From an uncultured Gammaproteobacteria bacterium (GTDB lineage: Bacteria; Patescibacteriota; Patescibacteriia; UBA11705; DATKZF01), in contig CAYPKD010000005.1 of assembly GCA_964411255.1 (NCBI GenBank), forward strand, positions 5,547-69,546: DNA of 64,000 bases, given 5' to 3'. The position numbers and the translations under genes are program-made. This document shows, piece by piece, positions 3,299 to 59,036 of this stretch (positions are counted from its first letter, which is position 1; the number at the start of each line of letters is the position of its first letter). The notes beneath the pieces are model-generated. The model was not told where the DNA came from and did no database searches. It saw only the letters and a list, made by a program, of their open reading frames with translations.

Positions 3299-3415
3299 TA
3301 TTACGAATACCCCGAATTATTGATCCGAATATCTGAAATATTTTATAATTCGTAGAGTATTCAGATTATTTGGGGTATTAGGATAGGAAATTCGGGTCAT
3401 TAGGATCAATAATTT

Positions 3416-6160: not shown

Positions 6161-6241
6161 GTAGCTTGATGTCAAGTTACTTTTTAATTACCAATATACA
6201 AATTAATATAAAATATTACAAATAATAACAAATATACAAAT

Positions 6242-8841: not shown

Positions 8842-9022
8842 AATCTTTTTATTTAAGAAGGCCTAAGAAGGCACCAGATGGCTTAATAGATAAAGAGGAA
8901 AAGAGGTTGAGAAGGCAAGTATTAAAATTGGAATAGCCTTCTTTTCCCATATGCCTCATTTTCCTATCAATCCCGCTTAAGCCCTATCAAGCCTTCTTTA
9001 ATAATGAAAGGAGAATATTACC

Positions 9023-11005: not shown

Positions 11006-11008
11006 TTA

Positions 11009-11033
11009 AGGTGGTAGGCCGGTAGGATGGTAG
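11009..11033 (+). repeat. array of 3 tandem 8-nt NNNGGTAG repeats
   Basis: ggtggtag gccggtag gatggtag immediately 3' of the infB stop. Confidence 0.5.
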
Positions 11034-11092
11034 TTTAATTGAAGAAATATAAACTACTTGCTATTCTATTCTAACTTTTTTAATTTTCAATA

Positions 11093-11519: not shown

Positions 11520-12509
11520 ATGACAGATAAAAATACAATTTATGATGTAATAATCATCGGTGCTGGCGCTGCAGGTTTGACAGCAGCCATTTATACTGGC
11601 CGAAGAGAATTGAAAACATTAATTTTGACAAAAGACATTGGCGGCCAGGCTGCGATGACTGATGAAATTGAAAATTGGCCTGGTGAAATTTCTATTTTAG
11701 GACCTGAACTAATGAATAAATTTAAAGCCCAAGCTGAAAAGTGGGGTGCAAAAATTGAATTTGCTGAAATAAAAGAGATTAAAAAAGAAAAAGATTATTT
11801 TGTACTACTTGCAGATGGAAAAGAATATAAAGCATTAACTATAATTTTAGGATTTGGACTTGAGCATAGGAAATTAGGAGTGAGCGGAGAGAAAGAATTT
11901 ACTGGAAAAGGAATATCATATTGCGCCACTTGTGATGGCCCATTATTTCGAGGGAAGACAATTGGTGTGGTTGGCGGAGGTAATTCAGCTTTGGATGCAG
12001 TTGAATATTTAGCAAAGCTGGCGGAAAAGGTTTATATGTTTATTAGAAAAGATACTTTTAGTCCAAATGCAGAGACAGTTCTTGTTGATACAATTCAGAA
12101 TTTGGAAAAACAAGGCAAAGTTGAAGTAATGTGGAACACAGAAGTAAAGGAAATAAAAGGAGAAAAATTAATGAATTCTGTGGAATTTGTTAATAATAAA
12201 ACGAATAAAACACAAGATTTAGAATTAAAGGGTTTATTTATTGAAATTGGCATGGTACCGCAGACAAAAGTGATTGAAGGCCTGGTTGATTTAGATGAAC
12301 GTGGACAAATAGTAATTGATCAGGGATGTAATACCAGCGTGCCTGGCATTTATGCTGCTGGTGATGTAACTATCAGTCCATATAAACAATTGGTCACTTC
12401 TGCTGGGGAAGGTGCAAAAGCAGCTTTATCAGCATATTCTCATATTCAGAAAACTCAGGGTAAAAAAGGCGGAGTTGGGAGTGATTTTACAAAAAAGAAA
12501 ATTATGTAA
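11520..12509 (+). CDS. trxB: thioredoxin-disulfide reductase
   Basis: GAGAAG FAD-binding site; CATCDG redox-active cysteines. Confidence 0.9.
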   Translation: MTDKNTIYDVIIIGAGAAGLTAAIYTGRRELKTLILTKDIGGQAAMTDEIENWPGEISILGPELMNKFKAQAEKWGAKIEFAEIKEIKKEKDYFVLLADGKEYKALTIILGFGLEHRKLGVSGEKEFTGKGISYCATCDGPLFRGKTIGVVGGGNSALDAVEYLAKLAEKVYMFIRKDTFSPNAETVLVDTIQNLEKQGKVEVMWNTEVKEIKGEKLMNSVEFVNNKTNKTQDLELKGLFIEIGMVPQTKVIEGLVDLDERGQIVIDQGCNTSVPGIYAAGDVTISPYKQLVTSAGEGAKAALSAYSHIQKTQGKKGGVGSDFTKKKIM

Positions 12510-12620
12510 AAACAGATCAACGGATAGCAACAGATACAACGGAAATCAATTAATATCCGTTTCATCTGTTGTAGATCTGCCAGTCCTGAGCTTGTCGAAG
12601 GGTTGATCCGTTTGAATAAT
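12510..12620 (+). repeat. copy A of a ~100-nt repeated leader/MITE-like element
   Basis: aacagatcaacggata...tatccgtttcatctgtt hairpin, then gtcctgagc..gtcgaagg box, then gttgatccgtttgaataat fused to the gdh ATG; homologous to 16540-16630 and 30088-30195. Confidence 0.6.
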
Positions 12621-13844
12621 ATGAATGCATTTGAAAACGCAATGCAGCAACTTGATAATGCTGCGAAAATAATTAATTTAGATGAAAAAGTGCTTCAGTC
12701 ATTAAAAAGGCCTCAAAAGATAATTGAGGTTTCTTTGCCTGTGAAAATGGATGACGGCTCGTTAAAGTTTTTTGAAGGTTATCGCGTTCAATATAATAAT
12801 TGGCGAGGGCCATTCAAAGGCGGCATTCGGTTCTTTCCAGAAGTTGACAAGGACGAAGTAAAAGCTTTATCGTTTTGGATGACCATAAAGTGCGCTGTTT
12901 TAGATTTGCCGCTTGGAGGCGGAAAAGGCGGTGTTACTGTAAACCCGAAAGAACTTTCAGAAAAAGAGTTGGAAAATTTAAGCCGCGTTTATACCCGGGC
13001 TTTATATAATGACATTGGACCAGACAAAGATGTACCAGCGCCAGATGTTTATACCACTCCTCAAATTATGTCCTGGATGGCTGATGAGTATTCAAAAATT
13101 AAGAAAAAAAAGACACCAGGCGTGATTACCGGAAAACCGCTTGAAGCTGGAGGCTCTGAAGGCAGAAGTACAGCTACGGCTCAGGGAGGATTTTATTTGC
13201 TAAAGCACATTATGGAAATTGAGCAGAGAAAGCCTGAAAATCAAACAGTGGCTATTCAGGGATTTGGCAATGCAGGCTCAGTAATGGCGCAGCTTTGTCA
13301 TCAGGATGGATTAAAAGTAGTGGCAGTTTCAGATTCAAAAGGAGGAATTTATAAAAAAGATGGGTTAGACATTAAAAAAGTTATTGAACATAAAAAAGAA
13401 ACTGGATCAGTGCAAAATTTTGAAAATGCAGAAAATATTTCAAATGAAAAATTATTAGAGCTTGATGTGCAGTTTTTAGTGCCTGCAGCTTTAGAAAATC
13501 AAATAACGCGAAATAACGCAAATAAAATTGACGCCAACATTATTATTGAGCTGGCTAATGGACCGATTACGCCTGAAGCAGACATTATTTTATTTGAAAA
13601 AGGAATAAATGTTGTTCCAGATGTGCTGGCAAATGCAGGTGGGGTGACAGTTTCATATTTTGAATGGTATCAGAATGTAAATAATGAAAAATGGACAGAA
13701 AAAAAGGTTTTTGAAAAATTAAAACCCAAAATGATTGAAAATTACGATCAGGTTTTTGAAAAACGAAATGAATTTCAGGTTGATATGAGGCGGGCAGCGT
13801 TTGTGTTGGCCTTGGAAAGACTAAAGCAAACCTTTCCTTTTTGA
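12603..13844 (+). CDS. gdh: Glu/Leu/Phe/Val-family glutamate dehydrogenase
   Basis: GGGKGG motif, Rossmann GFGNAGS; true start may be the Met at 12621 (MNAFENAM). Confidence 0.9.
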   Translation: MIRLNNMNAFENAMQQLDNAAKIINLDEKVLQSLKRPQKIIEVSLPVKMDDGSLKFFEGYRVQYNNWRGPFKGGIRFFPEVDKDEVKALSFWMTIKCAVLDLPLGGGKGGVTVNPKELSEKELENLSRVYTRALYNDIGPDKDVPAPDVYTTPQIMSWMADEYSKIKKKKTPGVITGKPLEAGGSEGRSTATAQGGFYLLKHIMEIEQRKPENQTVAIQGFGNAGSVMAQLCHQDGLKVVAVSDSKGGIYKKDGLDIKKVIEHKKETGSVQNFENAENISNEKLLELDVQFLVPAALENQITRNNANKIDANIIIELANGPITPEADIILFEKGINVVPDVLANAGGVTVSYFEWYQNVNNEKWTEKKVFEKLKPKMIENYDQVFEKRNEFQVDMRRAAFVLALERLKQTFPF

Positions 13845-15936: not shown

Positions 15937-16133
15937 GAGATTACCACGATGTGGTCACTTCGTGACAAGATCCATAATACGAGATAATACAGATTACAGA
16001 TAGTACAAGATTAGCGGATTCCAAATAGTAATAAGCAATCAGCAATTAACAATCATTCCTTGACATAATTTTAAATAAATGATAACATTGATAAATGTTG
16101 GGTGAGGTCAGACATCTAAAAAAGGAGGGGTAG

Positions 16134-16465: not shown

Positions 16466-16495
16466 TATTAAGGACTCTTTTGGGTCCTTTTTTAC
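16466..16495 (+). terminator. rho-independent terminator
   Basis: aaggactcttttgggtcctttttt. Confidence 0.55.
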
Positions 16496-16539
16496 TTGAT
16501 TTTTTGTAAAAATTCAGATAGAATAGTAATAGTTTTTAG

Positions 16540-16630
16540 AAAAACAGATCAACAGATCAGCAACGGATACAACGGAAATCATTTGACATCTGTTTCATCT
16601 GTTGAATATCCGTTGATCCGTTTGAACAAT
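16540..16630 (+). repeat. copy B of the repeated leader/MITE-like element
   Basis: about 85% identical to copy A but lacks the 24-nt GC box; ends gttgatccgtttgaacaat fused to the leuS ATG. Confidence 0.6.
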
Positions 16631-19036
16631 ATGAAGAAATATAATCACCAAAAATTAGAAAAAAAGTGGCAAGAGTATTGGGAAGAAAAAGAAATATACA
16701 AAGCTTTGGATTTTGATCAAACAGATAAGCCTAAATATTACAGTTTAATAGAATTCCCTTATCCATCTGGGGAAGGTCTTCATGTTGGCCATCCGCGAAG
16801 CTACACCGCCTTAGATGTTATTGCCAGAAAGAAAAGGATGCAAGGGTATAATGTTTTATTCCCAATTGGCTGGGATGCTTTTGGTTTACCCACGGAAAAT
16901 TATGCAATAAAAACCGGTATTCATCCAAAATTAGCTACTGCTCAAAATGTTAAAAGATTTACAAAGCAATTAAAGAGCCTGGGATTGAGTTTTGACTGGT
17001 CAAGGGAAATAAATACTACTGATCCTGAATATTATAAATGGACGCAATGGATATTTTTAAAATTGTATGAAAATGGTTTAGCATATAAAAAGAAAATGCC
17101 AATTAATTGGTGTCCTTCATGCAAAATTGGTTTAGCCAATGAAGAAGTGGTCAGTGGAGTTTGTGAGCGCTGCGGTCATGACGCAGAAAAAAGAGATATG
17201 AAACAATGGCTTTTAAAGATAACTGCATATGCAGATCGTTTGATTGAGGATTTGGAAACCGTTGATTATTCTGAGAATATTAAAACAGCGCAAATAAATT
17301 GGATTGGCCGGAGCGAAGGAGCTGATGTTGATTTTGAAATAAAAGGAACAGATAAAAAACTTAGTGTTTTTACCACCAGACCTGATACTTTATTTGGCGC
17401 AACGTACATGGCAATTGCTCCTGAACATGAATGGGTTGAAGAAATCACCACAAAAGACAATAAAGAAGCTGTTTTTAATTATCAAAAGCAGGCCAGGCAA
17501 AAATCAGATTTAGAAAGAACTGATTTGGCAAAAGAAAAGACCGGAGTGTTTACTGGCGCGTATGCAATTAATCCGGTCAATGGCCAGGAAATTCCAATTT
17601 GGGTTGCTGATTATGTTTTGTCAACTTATGGCAGTGGAGCAATTATGGCGGTACCAGCGCATGATGAGCGTGATTATGAATTTGCCAAAAAATATGATTT
17701 GCCAATTATTGAAGTTATTAAAGGCGGAGACATCGCAAAAGAAGCTTACACCGAAGATGGTGAGTTAATAAATTCAGAAATGCTTAATGGTTTAAATGTT
17801 AGTGATGCCATAAGTAAAATAAATAAATGGCTGGAGGAAAAAGAATTTGGTAAAGCAACTATTAATTATAAGCTTCGCGACTGGATTTTTTCCCGGCAAC
17901 ATTATTGGGGTGAGCCAATACCAATTGTTTTTTGTAAAAAATGCGGTACAGTACCTGTCCCATATGAAGAATTGCCACTGGAGTTGCCAAAAGTTGAAAA
18001 TTATAAGCCAACTGAAACGGGTGAATCACCTTTAGCAAATATTAAAAAGTGGGTTAATACAAAATGTCCAAAATGTAAGGGATCTGCAAAGAGAGAAACA
18101 GACACAATGCCAAACTGGGCTGGCAGTTCATGGTATTTCTTGCGATATTGCGATCCAAAGAACAGTGAAGAATTTGCAAATTCTGAGAAACTAAAATATT
18201 GGTTTCCAATAGATTTATACAATGGCGGAATGGAACACACAACATTGCATTTATTGTATTCCAGATTTTGGCATAAATTTTTATTTGATATAGATTTAGT
18301 GCCAACTTCAGAGCCTTACATGCAGCGGAGATCTCATGGCTTGATTATCGGAGAGGATGGACAGAAAATGTCAAAGTCTAGAGGTAATGTTATTAATCCG
18401 GACGATATTGTTAAGGAGCACGGAGCAGATGTTTTGAGAACATATGAGATGTTTATCGGTCCATATGATCAGTCTATCGCATGGTCAACAAACGGTATAA
18501 ATGGAATTCGGAGGTTTATTGATAGGATTTATAATTTTAAGGGTTTTAAAAATAATGGAACTAAGGATTCTGAGGAAGTTGAGATATTATTGCAAAAGAC
18601 AATAAAAAAAGTAACAGATGATATAGATAAAATGCATTTTAATACAGCTATTAGCGCTTTAATGATTTTATTGAACAAATTTGAAGAAGAAAAGATTATT
18701 TCAAAAGATACTTGGAAAATATTTTTAATAATGTTTTCTGTGTTCGCGCCACATATAACGGAAGAGCTTTGGCAGGCTCTGGGTGAAAAGACCAGCATAT
18801 GCCTAAAACCATGGCCCAAGTATGATGAGGGTAAAATTAAAGAAGAAAAAATTAAATTAGTAGTACAGGTTGATGGTAAGGTACGGGCAAATATCGAGGT
18901 AGAAAGCGGAATAATTGAAGACGAAGCAAAACAAATAGCATTGAAAGATGAAAAATTAAAAAAATCTATTGGGGATAAGGAAATTAAAAAAATTGTGTTT
19001 GTGAAGGATAAGCTGATTAATTTTGTGATAAAGTAA
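16631..19036 (+). CDS. leuS: leucine--tRNA ligase
   Basis: HVGHPRSY (HIGH) and KMSKS motifs; CP1 editing-domain region. Confidence 0.95.
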   Translation: MKKYNHQKLEKKWQEYWEEKEIYKALDFDQTDKPKYYSLIEFPYPSGEGLHVGHPRSYTALDVIARKKRMQGYNVLFPIGWDAFGLPTENYAIKTGIHPKLATAQNVKRFTKQLKSLGLSFDWSREINTTDPEYYKWTQWIFLKLYENGLAYKKKMPINWCPSCKIGLANEEVVSGVCERCGHDAEKRDMKQWLLKITAYADRLIEDLETVDYSENIKTAQINWIGRSEGADVDFEIKGTDKKLSVFTTRPDTLFGATYMAIAPEHEWVEEITTKDNKEAVFNYQKQARQKSDLERTDLAKEKTGVFTGAYAINPVNGQEIPIWVADYVLSTYGSGAIMAVPAHDERDYEFAKKYDLPIIEVIKGGDIAKEAYTEDGELINSEMLNGLNVSDAISKINKWLEEKEFGKATINYKLRDWIFSRQHYWGEPIPIVFCKKCGTVPVPYEELPLELPKVENYKPTETGESPLANIKKWVNTKCPKCKGSAKRETDTMPNWAGSSWYFLRYCDPKNSEEFANSEKLKYWFPIDLYNGGMEHTTLHLLYSRFWHKFLFDIDLVPTSEPYMQRRSHGLIIGEDGQKMSKSRGNVINPDDIVKEHGADVLRTYEMFIGPYDQSIAWSTNGINGIRRFIDRIYNFKGFKNNGTKDSEEVEILLQKTIKKVTDDIDKMHFNTAISALMILLNKFEEEKIISKDTWKIFLIMFSVFAPHITEELWQALGEKTSICLKPWPKYDEGKIKEEKIKLVVQVDGKVRANIEVESGIIEDEAKQIALKDEKLKKSIGDKEIKKIVFVKDKLINFVIK

Positions 19037-19166
19037 AACCAGCATTTCTGCTGTACGCCTGCCAGTTTCGTGGTCAGCGGCAGAGATGCCGCTTGATTCA
19101 GTGCAGGCGCTTACAAGCACCATTTCTGGTGCTACCCAAAATGACAGCAGAAATGCTGGTTTTTTG
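19037..19166 (+). other. GC-rich multi-stem structured element closed by an 18-bp stem plus U tract (complex terminator or ncRNA)
   Basis: aaccagcatttctgctgt ... acagcagaaatgctggtt then tttttt; inner hairpins cgcctgc/gcaggcg, gcggca-gaga-tgccgc, agcacca-tttc-tggtgct. Confidence 0.5.
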
Positions 19167-27213: not shown

Positions 27214-27420
27214 AAAATTATGAATAATTATAAATGAAATGAATGCTTATTTATTACAAATAATTATGAATTATCTATTACGAAACTACAAATCAACTAC
27301 ATAAACTACGAAAGCCAGGGTTTGTAACTGCGAAAGATAAATTATAGATTGATTTGTAAATTTATTGCTAGTATGTTAATTTTACCAAAAAGAGGATCTT
27401 TATAAAAGGAGAGTAGGAAA

Positions 27421-30087: not shown

Positions 30088-30195
30088 GAAAACAGATATT
30101 AATTTGTTTCCGTTTTATATCTGTTGCTATCCGCTTGCCCCGAGCGACCTGTCCTGAGCGAAGTCGAAGGAAGTTGAGGCGTTGATCCGTTTCTA
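30088..30195 (+). repeat. copy C of the repeated element (not fused to a start codon)
   Basis: aacagata...tatctgtt hairpin, gtcctgagcgaagtcgaagg box, gttgatccgttt; lies between the terminator of the 30231 gene and the GT operon start. Confidence 0.5.
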
Positions 30196-35567: not shown

Positions 35568-36110
35568 GTGGGCCTCCCTATATAAAAAGATTAATAGACA
35601 TTTTTGTCAAAATTGCTGAAAGGACGATGTAGGTGAGATGCCAAAGAGATTTGAAGGGACTTAAATAGATTTATTTCCCTTATCTCAATATGGGCAAAAT
35701 ATGCTCAGCCAATCTAATCGCAAGCGAATAGATCAGCATGAACTTCTCTCTCCTCTACATCGTTCTGTTCAGAAATTAGACATATAAAAACAGACTGAGA
35801 GAACCATGTCTGTTTAAAATACAGCTTTATAATCTAGCTGACTCTCTCTCCATGAAATTTGTTAGATTTCAATTTTCGATTTTGATTTAGTATTATAGCA
35901 TATTTTTTTAAAAAAGTCAAGACGAGAGCATAATTTAAGTCGTTTTTTGTCTAAATTTACGGAAATTACAAATTTGCTAAACTGGTAAATTAATTAAAAT
36001 TTTAGTAAAAATATTACGAATAATTACGAATTAGCAAGGCTGTTATTGAAAAGCATATATTTAATTGGTAATATGATAGAGCCTGTTTTCATGCGGAAAA
36101 GGAGAAAACC

Positions 36111-38023: not shown

Positions 38024-38033
38024 AAATTTGTTA

Positions 38034-38066
38034 GGCTGGTAGATCGGTAGGTTAGTAGGTTGGTAG
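38034..38066 (+). repeat. array of 4 tandem NNNGGTAG octamers
   Basis: gctggtag atcggtag gttagtag gttggtag between the sugar transferase start and the rnpB 3' end. Confidence 0.5.
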
Positions 38067-38151
38067 ATTTAAAAAAAATTGGAAGAAGGACGCTACTAAT
38101 ATTATTGCAATTTTTTGTAAAAATTTCAATAATAACATCCACCTTCCAATT

Positions 38152-38762
38152 GATCCAAACAGGTCTATAAGCCGAATTCTGTCCCACCAGAGGCGGGGAT
38201 GATCATCTATCTAGTCCCGAGATTACTCTCGGGATCAAGCGAGCTACCAAACTTGCTCTTGCACCAGATAAGGTTTACCACCACCTAATGTTACCATTAG
38301 GCAAGAGAAGTATAAATTAAATAGTCACGTGAACCATTTAACTTTTTTCCTTCTCACTTTTCACCTTTCACCACTGCTACGCAGTGGAATTTCTAAATCC
38401 TAATTTTTTAAACTCTGAACAATTTTCAAATTTTCGAAAGGTTTTAAACATTAGAACATTTGAATTTCGAATTTGTTTAGAATTTCGTATTTCGAATTTA
38501 GCGCTTCCATTGCGCAACAATGGCTAGTATAGTCTCTGTGGCACTGGCTGTCGTCTAGGTTTATTAATTATCCTAGAATCGCCTGGGAGTTACCCAGTAT
38601 CATACCGCAGATTACGCTGATTAGCCGATTACGCAGATTGCAGGACTTTTTTTTATCAGCGTAATCAGCGTAATCTACGGTCAGGTGTTCGGACTTTCCT
38701 CCGGCCTACGCTTTTCACTTTGTTCAAAGCTTCGGCTGGCGATCATCCAACCTATTTGGATC
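38152..38762 (-). ncRNA. rnpB: RNase P RNA (bacterial type A) with large AT-rich insertions, ~610 nt
   Basis: minus-strand reads GGAGGAAAGUCCGAACACC (P4 5' strand), ACAGAAUUCGGCUUAUAG (P4 3' strand, compensatory GUCCGAA/UUCGGCU), CCAGUGCCACAGAGA, GGUGAAAGGUGAAAAGUGAGAAGG; 12-bp P1 GAUCCAAAUAGG/CCUGUUUGGAUC. Confidence 0.85.
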
Positions 38763-42198: not shown

Positions 42199-42206
42199 AT
42201 ATTTTT

Positions 42207-42244
42207 AGATTGGTAGATCGGTAGATTTGTAGATTGGTAGTTAG
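42207..42244 (+). repeat. left inverted-repeat arm: 4 NNNGGTAG octamers
   Basis: attggtag atcggtag atttgtag attggtag; inverted partner at 42675-42709. Confidence 0.5.
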
Positions 42245-42246
42245 AA

Positions 42247-42629
42247 TTATTTATTATTTAATTCTTTAGTTTTTGAATTTGTCATTTTATTCAACATTCG
42301 CATGACTTCATTTAATAAATTATCAACTTTTAAAAAATTTAATTTTTTTCCAAATGGTAGACGATTGGCAATTTCTATTTGAGTTTCTAATTCTGCCCCG
42401 GAAGCATATGCTACTATTAAAAAGTGACGATATTCTTTTATTGTTAGTCGTTTTTTTCCTTCAGCGATATTCGAGGGGATAGATATAGCTGTTTTTCGTG
42501 TATGTTGAATTAATCCAAATGATTCAATTTTCGGATATTATTCTGTTAATTCATAGACCGCGACAACTAAATCCATTGCTTTTTGCCAAACAATTAATTT
42601 CCGGTAATCCCCAGGTTGATTAATTTCAT
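42247..42629 (-). pseudogene. four-helix-bundle protein gene (23S rRNA intervening-sequence type), decayed
   Basis: minus strand encodes LIVWQKAMDLVVAVYELTE*YPKIESFGLIQHTRKTAISIPSNIAEGKKRLTIKEYRHFLIVAYASGAELETQIEIANRL...; one in-frame TAA and an N-terminal frameshift relative to the ATG at 42629. Confidence 0.7.
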
Positions 42630-42674
42630 TTTAAAATAATTTCCCATGTACTTTTATCCTATCATTTAAATCTC

Positions 42675-42709
42675 TACTGATCTACCAATCTACCGCCCTA
42701 CCGAACTAA
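42675..42709 (+). repeat. right inverted-repeat arm: 4 CTACCNNN octamers
   Basis: ctactgat ctaccaat ctaccgcc ctaccgaa is the reverse complement of the 42207-42244 array type. Confidence 0.5.
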
Positions 42710-42713
42710 CTTA

Positions 42714-46629: not shown

Positions 46630-46769
46630 AAGTTTTTTGTAAGAAACGTCAAATGATATTTACATTATAATTGATAAGGACATATTTGTCAATCCCTGTG
46701 TTGTTAGAAAATTTTTTTGTACTCAGTTTCATTTTTCTATGCAGTAAAAAAATGCTATAATATAAATCA

Positions 46770-47465
46770 ATGAAAGAAGCTAATAAATTGTATAAAAACT
46801 GGTGGTTTAAGCCAACAATAGTTATTATTGGCATTCTTTTGATTATAATAATGATAAACGTAAAAGTCAATAGGCCATTTGAGGATTTTATAAAAAAAAT
46901 AAAACAGGCAGCAGTGCCAATTGAAAGCACTTATAATATGGATGAGATACGAACTGACAATGATCCGTATTTGGGGATTAAAGAAGCACCTGTTCAGATT
47001 GTGGAATTCGGAGATTTTAATTGTCCGTATTGCAAGGCTTCTGTATCAATAATGAGAGAAGTACTGCTAGAGTATGAAGATGAAGTTTTTTATCAGTTCA
47101 GAGATTTTCCAGTAGTATCTGAACAATCAATATTTTTGGCAATGGCAGGCAGCTGCGCTCATGAGCAAAATAAATTTTGGGCATTACATGATTTGCTCTT
47201 TCAAAGACAGGGAGAAATTAATGAACTCAATATTAATCAGTATGCGCAAAGCGTGGGCTTGAACACCAATCAGTTTAGTGAATGTATAAGTAGTGAAAAA
47301 TTTAAAAATGAAGCAATGGAAGATTTTTTAGCTGGAGATAAATTGCAGGTCAAGGGCACGCCAACATTTTTCGTTAATGGGAACAAATTCCAGGGCGTAC
47401 CAACAAAGGAAAATTTAAAAAGAATAATTGATCAGCTTATTTTAATAGAAGAAAAAAAACAATAG
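46770..47465 (+). CDS. DsbA-like thiol:disulfide oxidoreductase (membrane-anchored)
   Basis: N-terminal TM helix; CPYC active site. Confidence 0.75.
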   Translation: MKEANKLYKNWWFKPTIVIIGILLIIIMINVKVNRPFEDFIKKIKQAAVPIESTYNMDEIRTDNDPYLGIKEAPVQIVEFGDFNCPYCKASVSIMREVLLEYEDEVFYQFRDFPVVSEQSIFLAMAGSCAHEQNKFWALHDLLFQRQGEINELNINQYAQSVGLNTNQFSECISSEKFKNEAMEDFLAGDKLQVKGTPTFFVNGNKFQGVPTKENLKRIIDQLILIEEKKQ

Positions 47466-48313: not shown

Positions 48314-48414
48314 TTTAAATTTGAGAATAGTTATTTAGAAATCAGTATTAGAAATAAGATAATAAAAATAGTTTTTAAATACTAATTTCAAATTTCCATT
48401 TTCCATTACCAATT

Positions 48415-49539: not shown

Positions 49540-49557
49540 TAATTTTGAGAATTGGAG

Positions 49558-49632
49558 GTTACGGAATTACGGAAGGTTACTGATATTACGGATATCCGTA
49601 GTATCCGTAATAATCAGTAAATCCGTAATCCC
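49558..49632 (+). repeat. palindromic array of TTACGGA (x3-4) then TCCGTAA (x3) heptamers
   Basis: ggttacggaattacggaaggttac..attacggatatccgtagtatccgtaa..aatccgtaatcc between porA and the inserted gene. Confidence 0.5.
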
Positions 49633-49640
49633 TAATAAAT

Positions 49641-52118
49641 ATGAAAAAAATAATATTACTTACAATTCTTCTGGCATTAATTTGCACGTCTTTTTTAGTT
49701 GCTGCCAAGGTTAGTGCGTTTGAGCCTTTGGAAGAATTAATTCCAAGAATGAAAATCCCGATCCCGCAGCTTGAACCATTTCAAAAGCCTACTTATGTGG
49801 AAGAAGGAGGCAAGGGCTATATTTTCATTCCATGGATAGCCCAATATGTAAGTGCAATGTATAAATATGCTTTGGCTATTGGATCAATCATTGCTGTGAT
49901 TGCAGTTATGGTAGGAGGAATTTTATATTTAACCTCTGGCGGTGCGCCTGGCAGAATAGATCAGGGTAAAAATATTATTATTGGTGCTATTACCGGACTT
50001 TTAATTATAATTTTTTCTTATATCTTTTTAAATACAATTAATCCTGAACTGGTGAATCTTAAGGCTATTAGAATTCAAGCTGTAAAACAAGAAGCATTAG
50101 TGGTTGGAAATAATTGTAAGGATTTGGGAGCTGGATTTATAGTCAGAACTCCAAGCGGAGAAAAAGAAGGAACAACAGGTAATGCCCAGTATTTTGCATG
50201 CGGCAGTTCATATCCAGTAAGGTCAGGGGCAGCAGATGTGATTGTTCCCGAAGGTCAGAATTGCGATGGGGCGTATTGCCAAAAGGGTGCTTGCGAGACT
50301 GTTGATGGTAAACCACAGTGTGTGAATGCTTTGTTTACAGGAGAAATTACAGGAACGATGTTGTCCGGAGGAAGATATATTGATGAAGAATTTGAGCTTT
50401 GGGGCATGCCGGGAAATGGTCTTCTCGCAGCATTTCCAGTTCCATCTAAAGGACGATATGTTATTCCTTTAACAGCTGAATTAGAAAACAAACTAAATCT
50501 TGTAGACAAAGTGTATTTTCATCTACAGATAAATACCACAGGTGCTTATCCTTATTGGGCCTATAAAATTGGAAAGGAAGGAGTTGTTGATGTGGATTTG
50601 ATAAAAGAAACGGTAAAAAGTTATTTTAAAACTACAATAGATAGTGAATTTTATGCAGTAAAAAGTTATAAGGATCCAGAAAAAGCAATATGGGGATTCC
50701 CATACTCTCTAGATCAGATGTCCCCACTCAATCCTAGTTATGGTAATACCCCTTGTGATCCATGTTTTGTGATGCCTAGGAACGCTGAATGGCGATTTGA
50801 ACAGAGATTGCCTTGGTGTCAATTTTGGGAACCGACTGATCTTTTAGTAGCAGCAAAAAGTGGATCTGGAACAGTTGTAAATTTTAATATTGATGATTTT
50901 CCAGAATATCCTCAGTGGCCTCCACCGGTTCTAGTAAAAGAACTTCTATTAGATAATATTTCTGGATTACCTACGCCTGAATTTTTAAAGGGTGTTAAAT
51001 ACGAAGATATAGATTGGAATAATTTGGCTACAATCAATCCAGATTTATATCCTTATATGACTGATCCTGCTGAATTTTGTGTGGCTTCGAGTCAGTTAAC
51101 ATCTGCCTCTCCATTTCCTGGGACTCCATGTACTAGTCCGTTTGAGACAGCATTTGTTGCAGCTGATGATGCGAATGCGCCAGATGATTTAAAGGGGAAA
51201 ACATTATATTGTCGGCCTGCTGGTTATCAAGTCGGTTCAGGCACAGCAGTAGCAAAGTTTGAATGGACATTGGAAGATGCTAGGAAAGGAGATACGTGTG
51301 ATAATTTAAGTGTTGCTCAGAGTTTTCCAGGACAATTTTCAGCTGGACAAACAGCAAAAAACGATGGACAGCCATTTGTTAATTGTGAATCTGGCGTTAG
51401 TTGCCAATGGGTTAGCGGTGATGTAGGAGAATGTATAAATGGTTTAACATATTGTTTTGGGTTTTGTGAAGATGATGAAGCAGTATTGTCTATGGGAATT
51501 GGAGATCCATGCAGAGATGGCACCTGCCTTCCATATAAAGGATCAATAGAATTAAAATGCGTTTTAAATGGAAATGCCAGGGAATGTTTATTAGGCACAT
51601 GGGGATCATTTTGCAATACTGATAACGACTGTAAAGACGGTTTTGAATGTATTAAGCATGACACTACAACTACTGATGAAGTTCAATTTTGTGCAAAAAA
51701 GAATGCAGGAAGATGGCAGGCATGTGGAGATAAAATTAGCGGTAGTGGTACGAATTGTTCTTCTGGATTGGATTGTGAGCAAGTAGAATACGGAGAAGAA
51801 GGTGATAGTGACGCACAGTGTGATACAGGCCATTGGTCTGGAGCAGATACTAATAATTTGAAATTTTGTCTTGAAAGTACTTATGATGATAATAATCATG
51901 GGATCTGCTCCTGTTCAAATAATAGTAATTGTGCCAATACTTATGGTTGGGATTCTGGTGCAAATTATTGTAATTTAGCAGGTTATGAATATTGTTCTCA
52001 AAAAGTTGAAGGCGCATGGTGTAAAGTAGAGGGAAAAACAACACCAGACAATTATTTTTGCCATGGTGTAGGAGGTGAGTATGGAGTTTTACATCAAAAG
52101 ATTTCAACTAGTCAATAA
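49641..52118 (+). CDS. 825-aa Cys-rich secreted/surface protein with VirB2/TrbC-pilin-like N-terminal region
   Basis: signal peptide, then two hydrophobic helices separated by a short Gly-containing loop, then a >600-aa extracellular region with >50 Cys. Confidence 0.75.
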   Translation: MKKIILLTILLALICTSFLVAAKVSAFEPLEELIPRMKIPIPQLEPFQKPTYVEEGGKGYIFIPWIAQYVSAMYKYALAIGSIIAVIAVMVGGILYLTSGGAPGRIDQGKNIIIGAITGLLIIIFSYIFLNTINPELVNLKAIRIQAVKQEALVVGNNCKDLGAGFIVRTPSGEKEGTTGNAQYFACGSSYPVRSGAADVIVPEGQNCDGAYCQKGACETVDGKPQCVNALFTGEITGTMLSGGRYIDEEFELWGMPGNGLLAAFPVPSKGRYVIPLTAELENKLNLVDKVYFHLQINTTGAYPYWAYKIGKEGVVDVDLIKETVKSYFKTTIDSEFYAVKSYKDPEKAIWGFPYSLDQMSPLNPSYGNTPCDPCFVMPRNAEWRFEQRLPWCQFWEPTDLLVAAKSGSGTVVNFNIDDFPEYPQWPPPVLVKELLLDNISGLPTPEFLKGVKYEDIDWNNLATINPDLYPYMTDPAEFCVASSQLTSASPFPGTPCTSPFETAFVAADDANAPDDLKGKTLYCRPAGYQVGSGTAVAKFEWTLEDARKGDTCDNLSVAQSFPGQFSAGQTAKNDGQPFVNCESGVSCQWVSGDVGECINGLTYCFGFCEDDEAVLSMGIGDPCRDGTCLPYKGSIELKCVLNGNARECLLGTWGSFCNTDNDCKDGFECIKHDTTTTDEVQFCAKKNAGRWQACGDKISGSGTNCSSGLDCEQVEYGEEGDSDAQCDTGHWSGADTNNLKFCLESTYDDNNHGICSCSNNSNCANTYGWDSGANYCNLAGYEYCSQKVEGAWCKVEGKTTPDNYFCHGVGGEYGVLHQKISTSQ

Positions 52119-58923: not shown

Positions 58924-59036
58924 ATATATAGAAAGCTTAATGGGCTTGATAAGGCTTAAGAAGGTAAAGAGGGCAATTTCATTGCTTCATTATTTAACAT
59001 ATAATAACATCATAACCTCGTAACTTCATAACTTTT

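What the first reader, a model, noticed from the sequence alone, without database searches (positions are those of the whole stretch)
12510..12620. Three-copy ~100-nt element, two copies fused to start codons of gdh and leuS
Copies at 12510-12620, 16540-16630 and 30088-30195 share an acagat(c/a)...atctgtt hairpin built from caacggata/tatccgttg sub-repeats. Copies A and C also carry a GC-rich gtcctgagc..gtcgaagg box that copy B lacks. All three share a terminal gttgatccgttt. In A and B the element ends exactly at gttgatccgtttgaa(t/c)aatATG of gdh and leuS, replacing a Shine-Dalgarno leader. Copy C is not associated with a start codon, which argues for a mobile MITE-like repeat whose 3' end has been co-opted as a 5'UTR or translation-initiation region, or for a shared cis-regulatory RNA.
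Basis: seen in the sequence. Interest (0 to 1): 0.55.

Follow-up and report, generated by a model that had tools for sequence, protein, structure and literature searches.

The report
Palindromic hairpin repeat before start codons
The three-copy element is a real, dispersed, roughly 80-120 base palindromic repeat of a Patescibacteria (CPR) lineage that sits immediately upstream of start codons, is present or absent at the same site in close relatives, and looks like a small mobile hairpin element rather than a conserved regulatory RNA.

Summary
Copies A (12510-12613) and B (16542-16623) are long imperfect hairpins. They are bounded by inverted termini AAACAGATCAAC/GTTGATCCGTTT and end 7 nt before the ATG of gdh and of leuS. 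Copy C (30090-30192) is a decayed copy.

A metagenome scan found 10 more copies. They lie next to other housekeeping genes, in low-GC contigs from the sample series that holds the closest relative.

In that relative, trxB and gdh overlap (ATGA), so site A is empty. An alaS-leader copy in L103 is likewise missing from three related contigs.

All 12 copies end 3-17 nt before a start codon or candidate ATG. Nine also begin 1-4 nt after the upstream stop. Both orientations occur.

There is no positive covariation. The eight CpG-type sites are saturated two-state and avoid Watson-Crick pairing.

The GC box is a separate nested motif that is widespread in unrelated genomes.

Lack of a Shine-Dalgarno sequence is normal here (40 of 51 genes).

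Best reading: a non-autonomous MITE/REPIN-like palindromic repeat, one family among many "word hairpins" in this lineage. The transposase, target duplication and any function remain unshown.

The parts
12503..12620 (.). Copy A: the whole segment that is extra relative to the empty trxB/gdh junction of the closest relative
   Evidence: L081/L082 read ...GAAAAT|ATGAATGC with trxB and gdh overlapping. The window reads ...GAAAAT[TATGTAAAAACAG...GTTTGAATAAT]ATGAATGC. The boundary is ambiguous by up to 3 nt (AAT).
12510..12613 (.). Copy A hairpin core, with inverted termini at 12510-12521 and 12602-12613
   Evidence: The model hit is 77.9 bits.
12579..12601 (.). GC box nested in the 3' arm of copy A (CCAGTCCTGAGCTTGTCGAAGG)
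   Evidence: L094 is 88% identical to copy A but lacks this segment...GTAGATCA|GTTGATCC.
16540..16630 (.). Copy B. The hairpin spans 16542-16623, with termini at 16542-16553 and 16612-16623. It fills the leuS 5' leader.
   Evidence: The model hit is 99.6 bits.
16470..16524 (+). Terminator-like hairpin (16470-16489) and promoter-like TTGATT-17-TAGAAT (16496-16524) upstream of copy B
   Evidence: The terminator and the whole promoter-like stretch, up to AGTTTTTAG, are conserved in L081/L082. L083 and L086 keep only the TAGAAT box and AGATAGTTT.
30090..30192 (.). Copy C: a decayed copy. Most of its left arm is lost and the right end is intact. It lies between a terminator-like hairpin and, by eye, the promoter region of a glycosyltransferase gene, 75 nt from that gene's ATG.
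30134..30180 (.). Long GC box in copy C, inserted at the same place as in copy A (...ATCCG[box]GTTGATCCGTTT)
   Evidence: A near-identical long box occurs in L086 1-60.
11520..12509 (+). Pyridine nucleotide-disulphide oxidoreductase gene (thioredoxin-reductase-like). Its TAA stop lies inside the inserted segment.
   Evidence: Pfam. Its C-terminus is ...KKKIM* here and ...KKKI* in L081.
12621..13844 (+). gdh
   Evidence: ELFV_dehydrog_N plus ELFV_dehydrog.
16631..19036 (+). leuS
   Evidence: Pfam. It is identical to P0001.
49552..49635 (.). A more distant relative of the same hairpin superfamily, built from TTACGGA words, ending 5 nt before the ATG at 49641
   Evidence: Model R1 scores 44.9 bits, E 8.6e-9. 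Context.

Best explanation
A, B and C are copies of a small non-coding palindromic interspersed repeat of a Patescibacteria lineage.

Anatomy (shown):
- The element is about 95 nt with its ends, and about 118 nt when it carries the nested GC box.
- Each arm holds four tandem 8-10 nt words (AACRGAT...), so the element folds into one roughly 35-bp imperfect hairpin on either strand.
- One end reads TGWWCA and the other TTTAY.

Origin (inferred): the element is copied to new sites by a trans-acting function that has not been identified, in the manner of a MITE or REPIN.

Placement (shown): surviving copies lie in transcribed spacers at the 5' edge of genes. They sit either between a stop codon and the next start in an operon, or between a promoter and the ATG.

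Why it is tolerated (inferred): the insert folds on itself. That brings the upstream stop codon, or the 5' end of the transcript, next to the downstream AUG, and leaves the few A/U-rich bases before the AUG unpaired. In a genome where most genes initiate without a Shine-Dalgarno sequence, such an insert should be nearly neutral. It may also alter mRNA processing or stability.

The GC box is a second, unrelated mini-hairpin that has landed inside the element.
For: (1) Dispersal. A pattern scan for the two termini found 10 further copies of 79-81 nt in low-GC contigs. They share the same word order and are 74-96% identical to one another and to A and B. They lie beside unrelated genes. By eye these junctions include S7/EF-G, S13/S11 and mraZ/rsmH, and the starts of proS and alaS. 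AlaRS was confirmed by Pfam, and its relatives are Patescibacteria.

(2) Presence/absence at orthologous sites. In the closest relative (LeuS 91% identical) trxB and gdh overlap, so the site of copy A is empty. The alaS-leader copy of L103 is absent from L230/L231 (AlaRS 87%) and L233 (82%). L232 (86%) carries a different insert there.

(3) Turnover at the leuS leader. The TAGAAT -10 box and the AGATAGTTT that follows it are conserved in four lineages; the terminator and the -35 region are kept only in the closest relative. Each lineage carries a different word hairpin between the promoter and the ATG. Two of these are recognised by the family model at 31.7 and 18.4 bits.

(4) Both orientations relative to the downstream gene are equally common: 6:6 by end type and 4:8 by an internal marker.

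(5) The stem shows sequence identity, not covariation. There are 0 compensatory pairs, and 93.8% of cells are paired against 95.4 +/- 0.4 in shuffles. This is what recent copies of one master sequence would show.

(6) Nested insertion and decay, as is typical of repeats. The GC box sits in A and C at the same position and is absent from L094 (88% identical to A). C has lost most of one arm.

(7) No Rfam family matches.
Against: - No target-site duplication could be established. An AAT repeat flanks A and the L103 copy but not the others.
- No transposase was found among about 30 window proteins scanned. The rest of the genome could not be searched.
- Only 2 intact copies and 1 decayed copy lie in 64 kb, and copy number per genome is unknown.
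- Neutral insertion does not obviously explain why all 12 copies end 3-17 nt before a start codon or candidate ATG. This holds even where 85-90 nt of spacer is free on the other side (B, L094).
- Neutral insertion also does not explain why the four variable stem pairs avoid Watson-Crick combinations (12 of 46).
- The metagenome copies come from unbinned contigs. Only L103 was tied to Patescibacteria.
Confidence: 0.6

Rival explanations
1. The hairpin is a functional cis-acting RNA module. Candidate roles are a 5' stabiliser against RNase J, an RNase III processing site, or a device that lets a ribosome pass from the upstream stop codon (or the 5' end) to the AUG at the other foot of the stem. 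On this view its dispersal is secondary.
For: - All 12 copies, and 6 of 7 more distant relatives, end within about 2-17 nt of a start codon.
- Nine begin 1-4 nt after the upstream stop.
- Every leuS leader examined in five lineages has some hairpin at this place.
- Three of about eleven downstream genes are aminoacyl-tRNA synthetases.
- An RNase J gene is present in the window.
Against: - There is no covariation that preserves pairing.
- G.U and A.C mismatches are equally frequent in the mRNA-sense strand (16 vs 17; derived by hand from the table and the orientations). There is therefore no sign of selection on the RNA of that strand.
- Both orientations occur.
- The gdh junction works without the element in the nearest relative.
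- The downstream genes have nothing in common.
Confidence: 0.2
2. The sequences are generated in place by slippage and amplification of short words, like the short tandemly repeated repetitive sequences of cyanobacteria. On this view they are not copied between sites.
For: - Many spacers in the window carry arrays of locus-specific 7-9 nt words.
- Orthologous spacers in the 91% relative carry different words while the flanking promoter and terminator are conserved.
- Word arrays also extend two helices of RNase P RNA.
Against: Twelve copies at non-homologous loci share the same four-word order, the same loop region and the same termini. They are 92% identical outside the variable sites. Independent slippage cannot produce that. 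In-place word evolution may still act after insertion.
Confidence: 0.1
3. The element is an array of DNA-binding sites, for example GATC clusters or AACRGAT half-sites bound by a regulator or a methylation-dependent protein.
For: - Each 80-nt copy holds 3-4 GATC sites.
- The words are strictly conserved apart from one position.
- Orientation independence fits a DNA-level role.
Against: - No candidate binding protein is linked to the element.
- Most copies lie in operon junctions rather than in promoters.
- The closest relative lacks the site at gdh with the same gene order.
Confidence: 0.05
4. The element is a TIGR (tandem interspaced guide RNA) array or another guide-RNA array of the kind common in CPR bacteria.
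For: TIGR-Tas systems are reported in CPR genomes, and their arrays are hard to recognise (PMC12045711).
Against: - TIGR units are 36 nt, with conserved edge and loop repeats and variable 8-9 nt spacers, and they lie next to a Nop-domain gene.
- Here the period is 8-10 nt and the two halves are inverted repeats.
- Copies are single and dispersed.
- No Nop-domain protein was seen among the window proteins scanned.
Confidence: 0.02

Closest known systems
REPINs (REP doublets forming hairpins) mobilised by RAYT tyrosine transposases (PMC3116915)
   Same: - A symmetric extragenic element of about 80-110 nt with two conserved inverted halves around a less conserved spacer.
- Predicted to form a long hairpin in ssDNA or RNA.
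- Lineage-specific sequence families.
- Insertions of one element into or beside another.
   Different: - REPIN arms are each a short REP palindrome; here each arm is four tandem words.
- Compensatory changes are common in REPINs; here there are none.
- Association with a RAYT gene could not be tested.
- REPINs are described as randomly distributed in extragenic space, not tied to start codons.
Bacterial MITEs co-transcribed with genes (Correia/NEMIS of Neisseria, ERIC of enterobacteria, BOX/RUP of pneumococcus); comparison from general knowledge
   Same: - Small non-coding repeats with inverted termini.
- Inserted in transcribed spacers, often close to gene starts.
- They fold into hairpins in mRNA and show presence/absence between strains.
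   Different: - No target-site duplication and no parent insertion sequence were shown here.
- The host phylum is Patescibacteria.
- The arms have a tandem-word architecture.
- The distance to the ATG is much tighter and more consistent.
Short tandemly repeated repetitive (STRR) heptamer sequences of heterocystous cyanobacteria, including those inside the RNase P RNA gene (Vioque 1997; title seen in the reference list of PMC2858038; details from memory)
   Same: - Tandem short words fill spacers.
- They also extend a helix of RNase P RNA.
- Different words occur at different loci.
   Different: - STRR units are 7 nt and are mostly simple direct arrays.
- The present family has a fixed order of four words per arm, defined inverted termini, and multiple near-identical dispersed copies.

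Membership tests
MITE (miniature inverted-repeat transposable element) | Short, non-coding, with terminal inverted repeats | tested here: met
   The termini are the 12-nt AAACAGATCAAC / GTTGATCYGTTT. Elements are 79-118 nt and have no ORF.
MITE (miniature inverted-repeat transposable element) | Multiple dispersed copies at non-homologous sites | tested here: met
   There are 12 full copies beside unrelated genes, plus 1 decayed copy.
MITE (miniature inverted-repeat transposable element) | Presence/absence at orthologous sites in relatives | tested here: met
   The trxB/gdh junction is empty in L081/L082. The alaS leader is empty in L230/L231/L233 and filled in L103.
MITE (miniature inverted-repeat transposable element) | Target-site duplication of fixed length | tested here: inconclusive
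   An AAT direct repeat flanks copy A and the L103 copy but not L088 or L090. In AT-rich flanks this can arise by chance.
MITE (miniature inverted-repeat transposable element) | A parent insertion sequence or transposase with matching ends | not testable with these tools
   No transposase was found among about 30 window proteins. The rest of the genome was not available.
REPIN/RAYT system | Two inverted REP sequences with a spacer, forming a hairpin | tested here: inconclusive
   The hairpin and the inverted halves are present. The halves are tandem words rather than individually palindromic REPs.
REPIN/RAYT system | A cognate RAYT (Y1 transposase) gene flanked by the repeat | not testable with these tools
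   None is in the window. No whole genome was held.
Conserved structured cis-regulatory RNA (riboswitch, T-box, r-protein leader) | Base pairs maintained by compensatory change; fixed orientation relative to the regulated gene; match to a curated family | tested here: not met
   There are 0 compensatory pairs, and pairing is below all 500 shuffles. Both orientations occur. There is no Rfam match at the gathering threshold, only chance hairpin hits at E<=10.
Intrinsic transcription terminator | GC-rich stem followed by a U tract | tested here: not met
   The terminator scan does not call the element. Only one of the two ends is followed by TTTTT. By eye, some copies lie inside ribosomal-protein operons.
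TIGR array | 36-nt units with edge and loop repeats and two variable spacers, next to a Nop-domain Tas gene | tested here: not met
   The period is 8-10 nt, the layout is palindromic and the copies are single. No Nop-domain hit was found. The definition is from PMC12045711.
STRR-type tandem word arrays | Head-to-tail repeats of one short unit | tested here: inconclusive
   Each arm is four imperfect words of 8-10 nt. The fixed word order, the termini and the dispersal go beyond a simple tandem array.

The most novel reading that the evidence does not exclude
The word hairpins are not just tolerated. They are the lineage's normal way of joining a ribosome entry point to an SD-less AUG. A ribosome that arrives at the 5' foot of the stem, either from the transcript's 5' end or after terminating the upstream gene, is handed across the closed hairpin to the AUG 3-17 nt beyond the 3' foot. 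This would be a bacterial counterpart of ribosome shunting or 70S re-initiation. The conserved wobble-type (G.U / A.C) positions would then tune how easily the stem opens. On this reading the family spreads because it carries a portable stop-hairpin-start junction.
Probability: 0.12. Interest if true: 0.75.

Novelty: new member of a known kind. Interest (0 to 1): 0.4.

Why it matters
Patescibacteria genomes are small and compact, and interspersed repeats in them have had little attention. I found no paper describing such elements.

- **Mobile or fast-turnover DNA at gene junctions.** This family, and the wider population of word hairpins around it, shows that such sequence occupies the tightest junctions of essential operons and even helices of RNase P RNA.
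- **Gene calling.** The public gene call for gdh in this genome starts at a second ATG, 21 nt downstream of the one conserved in the relative.
- **Strain markers.** The elements provide presence/absence markers between strains.
- **A test case for SD-independent initiation.** The strict placement before start codons and the non-Watson-Crick variable sites could help show how Shine-Dalgarno-independent initiation tolerates, or uses, nearby structure.

Tried and rejected
- **Genome-collection scan with LeuS.** The best hits were only 55-61% identical and mixed Firmicutes with CPR.
- **Rfam.** Run at the gathering threshold on the window, and at E<=10 on each copy. It returned only RNase P and chance matches to microRNA-precursor hairpins. 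There was no T-box, although several downstream genes are aminoacyl-tRNA synthetases.
- **TIGR arrays.** Considered after a literature hit and rejected on anatomy.
- **CsrA-type ANGGA site arrays (lead from memory).** Rejected because half the copies would present the complementary UCCGU words in the mRNA, and half the words are ACAGA.
- **SD replacement.** Rejected, because 40 of 51 genes lack an SD-like motif.
- **Target-site duplication.** 2-9 nt direct repeats at the junctions were looked for by eye. Nothing consistent was found.
- **"Same-order complement" rule.** A rule of this kind between the words of the two arms fits copy B perfectly but fails for A and L087.
- **Literature search by sequence for the GC box.** Nothing was found.
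- **Transposase or Nop-domain genes.** A Pfam scan of about 30 window proteins found none. The only mobile-element-like gene is a reverse transcriptase at the window's end.

Full report
**The observation**

The three stretches are as described. The terminal 12-mer GTTGATCCGTTT occurs exactly three times. Its near-complement (one transition) forms the left ends of A and B. That gives five hits at one mismatch or fewer against 0.29 expected. A and B are therefore bounded by terminal inverted repeats: AAACAGATCAAC at 12510 and 16542, and GTTGATCCGTTT at 12602 and 16612.

A and B share 52 nt at 87% identity. Each folds into one long imperfect hairpin over its whole length (-33.1 and -30.5 kcal/mol; z -4.2 and -5.1), and the complementary strand folds at least as well. 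Copy C keeps a short stem, the right arm and the right terminus, but has lost most of the left arm. Its fold is no better than shuffles, and the family model does not find it.

The ORFs that follow A and B are a glutamate/leucine-type dehydrogenase and leucyl-tRNA synthetase. The ORF before A is a thioredoxin-reductase-like flavoprotein.

**The organism and its relatives**

LeuS has an identical database entry and relatives at 91, 77, 75 and 75% identity. The named ones are Patescibacteria, and one label, "Bipolaricaulota", is probably a mis-assignment. Contigs encoding these proteins are syntenic with the window: infB, trxA, trxB, gdh, RNase HII, leuS, and two TrmB-type genes. A scan of one genome per species gave nothing closer than 61%.

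**Presence and absence**

In the 91% relative (L081/L082) trxB and gdh overlap...GAAAATATGAATGC. In the window, 118 nt lie between GAAAAT and ATGAATGC (12503-12620). The TAA that now ends trxB is inside that segment. Site A is therefore filled here and empty in the nearest relative.

At leuS, the upstream terminator and a TTGATT-17-TAGAAT promoter-like site are conserved in the closest relative up to AGTTTTTAG. L083 and L086 keep the TAGAAT box and the AGATAGTTT after it, while L085 has only a short spacer there. Between that point and the ATG each lineage has a different hairpin:
- TTACAG/TACGGAA words in L081;
- TACGGAT words in L086;
- TTTGTAA words in L085;
- an unrelated stem with the GC box in its loop in L083.

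**More copies**

A scan of metagenome contigs for AACAGATCAAC-N55-85-GTTGATCYGTT returned 22 loci. Ten of them are clear family members of 79-81 nt in contigs that are mostly 33-37% G+C (L094 is 51%). They come from the same JGI sample series as L081/L082. The other twelve are unrelated palindromes in GC-rich or other contigs.

None of the ten carries the GC box. L094 is 88% identical to copy A without the box, so the box is a nested insertion. In A and C it sits at the same place...ATCYG[box]GTTGATCCGTTT.

The AlaRS encoded next to the L103 copy is 79-88% identical to proteins from Patescibacteria genomes, including the assembly that holds L083. In three of those relatives (L230/L231, L233) the alaS leader has no element. 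There the ATG follows a conserved TTGATAAAAT-type box, by about 8 nt in L230/L231 and about 30 nt in L233. In L232 a different insert occupies the place. This is a second filled/empty comparison, in the opposite direction.

**Context**

I oriented each copy by the neighbouring genes.
- Every one of the 12 copies ends 3-17 nt before an ATG. For L087 the ORF runs off the contig after about 30 nt and cannot be verified; the others open ORFs.
- Nine begin 1-4 nt after the stop codon of a co-directional upstream gene.
- The other three (B, L094, L103) have 85-90 nt or more of spacer upstream, yet still abut the ATG.
- The outermost 5-8 nt are of two kinds, TGWWCA and TTTAY, and each copy has one of each. 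Either kind can face the downstream gene (6:6). Whichever end faces upstream supplies a TGA or TAA that is used as the upstream gene's stop.
- By eye, the flanking genes include S7/EF-G, S13/S11, mraZ/rsmH, lysS, proS and alaS. Only AlaRS was checked by search.
- Lack of a Shine-Dalgarno motif is not special to these genes. Only 11 of 51 genes in the window have one, and gdh in the empty-site relative has none.

**Structure statistics**

In the 12-copy alignment the stem positions are 92% identical pairwise. The eight CpG-type positions are only 51% identical, which is saturated between two states. These positions are R in each AACRGAT word and Y in each ATCYGTT word.

The four pairs they form are G.T 17, A.C 17, G-C 8 and A-T 4. 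The outermost pair is never Watson-Crick.

On the full 31-pair structure there is no pair with a change on both sides, against 2.9 expected from shuffles. The fraction of standard pairs (93.8%) is below all 500 shuffles. In the mRNA-sense strand G.U and A.C are equally common (16 vs 17; worked out by hand).

The hairpin is thus conserved as sequence, not through compensatory change, and nothing favours the transcribed strand. Why the variable sites avoid Watson-Crick pairing is unexplained. Possibilities are:
- selection for wobble geometry;
- flip-flop inversion of parts of the palindrome (L096 has its loop and inner word inverted);
- strand-specific cytosine deamination.

**A wider population**

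The family model also detects weaker relatives built from other words. Most of these also end 2-11 nt before a start codon, one of them a short rpmB-like ORF identified by eye.
- TTACGGA at window 49552-49635 (44.9 bits).
- TACRGAA at L106 1376-1465.
- CCRGAT at L088 2201-2311.
- The leuS leaders of L081/L082 (31.7 bits) and L086 (18.4 bits).

Many other spacers in the window hold arrays of locus-specific words. Orthologous spacers in the 91% relative hold different words between conserved promoters and terminators. Two helices of RNase P RNA are extended by such arrays.

**Interpretation**

Several features fit a small non-autonomous mobile repeat of the MITE/REPIN kind, and the interpretation rests on them together:
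- near-identical copies at unrelated sites;
- filled and empty orthologous sites in both directions;
- both orientations;
- nested insertion and decay;
- absence of covariation;
- absence from Rfam.

What is not shown is the mobilising enzyme, a target duplication, the copy number per genome, or any effect on expression.

The strict placement before start codons is the one feature that simple neutral insertion does not predict. It could reflect target choice, or survival only where a self-folding insert leaves the AUG accessible. It could also reflect a real role in mRNA stability, processing, or ribosome hand-over across the stem. I rate a primarily functional leader at about 0.2, and the specific hand-over model at about 0.12.

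**The GC box**

These give 129 distinct contexts with host G+C from 31 to 73%. The only free position is N. There is usually one extra Y-R pair outside CCT/AGG.

A possible fold is a CCU/AGG stem, tandem G.A pairs, a G-C pair and a GNA triloop. This is inference. The motif has no Rfam match and no literature hit by sequence. It is a separate, widespread mini-hairpin that deserves its own study.

Noticed in passing
window 12579-12601 and 30134-30180; L083 9958-9980; L086 1-60; viral loci L109-L228: The GC box YCCTGAGCG-N-AGTCGAAGGR is a widespread motif. There are at least 120 exact matches in viral contigs of 31-73% G+C, and only the N position varies. It matches no Rfam family and no paper by sequence. 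It sits in the loop or arm of other hairpins.
   Followed up: partly
window 38152-38758 (- strand): The RNase P RNA is 607 nt against a 367-nt model. A roughly 135-nt insert of TTCGAAAT-type words lies in the loop of one helix (P12 by my reading of the alignment). A 118-nt insert includes GATTACGC words. This recalls the STRR repeats in cyanobacterial RNase P RNA.
   Followed up: partly
window 3299-3415, 6190-6241, 8860-9000, 11006-11040, 15990-16060, 27270-27330, 35960-36050, 38024-38070, 48314-48414, 58924-59036: Many spacers carry arrays or hairpins built from a locus-specific 6-9 nt word (CCGAAT, TACAAAT, AGAAGGC, GGTAGNT, ACAGATTA, CTACRAA, TTACGAA and others). Most lie directly before a start codon. 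In the 91% relative the orthologous spacers carry different words.
   Followed up: partly
window 42199-42713: GGTAG word arrays in inverted orientation (42199-42245 and 42670-42710) flank about 430 nt. By eye this encodes a frameshifted four-helix-bundle (23S rRNA intervening-sequence protein-like) gene. It lies between the RNase J gene and a class I Trp/Tyr-type tRNA synthetase gene.
   Followed up: no
window 19037-19165; L081 8168-8300: A GC-richer stretch of about 130 nt just after leuS is conserved in the 91% relative. It has long-range complementarity (AACCAGCATTTCTGCTG ... CAGCAGAAATGCTGGTTTTTT). It could be a structured small RNA or an elaborate terminator. It has no Rfam match.
   Followed up: no
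window 62627-64000 (+ strand, runs off the end): This ORF has reverse-transcriptase (RVT_1) and RNase H-like domains. It is the only mobile-element-like gene seen in the window.
   Followed up: partly
window 49641-52118: An 825-aa gene with a weak type IV secretion pilin-like match lies inside a pyruvate:ferredoxin oxidoreductase gene cluster, between POR_N and TPP_enzyme_C subunit genes. A TTACGGA word hairpin precedes it.
   Followed up: no
L229 2012 (= window 12642): The public gene call for gdh in this genome starts at the second ATG (400 aa), 21 nt downstream of the ATG conserved in the relative (407 aa). The hairpin lies directly upstream.
   Followed up: partly
L230 3985-4003; window 46745-46772: In L230 the ATG follows a TTGATAAAAT-type -10-like box by about 8 nt (alaS), and in the window an ATG follows TATAAT by about 8 nt (gene at 46770). 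This suggests that leaderless or very short-leader mRNAs are common in this lineage.
   Followed up: no
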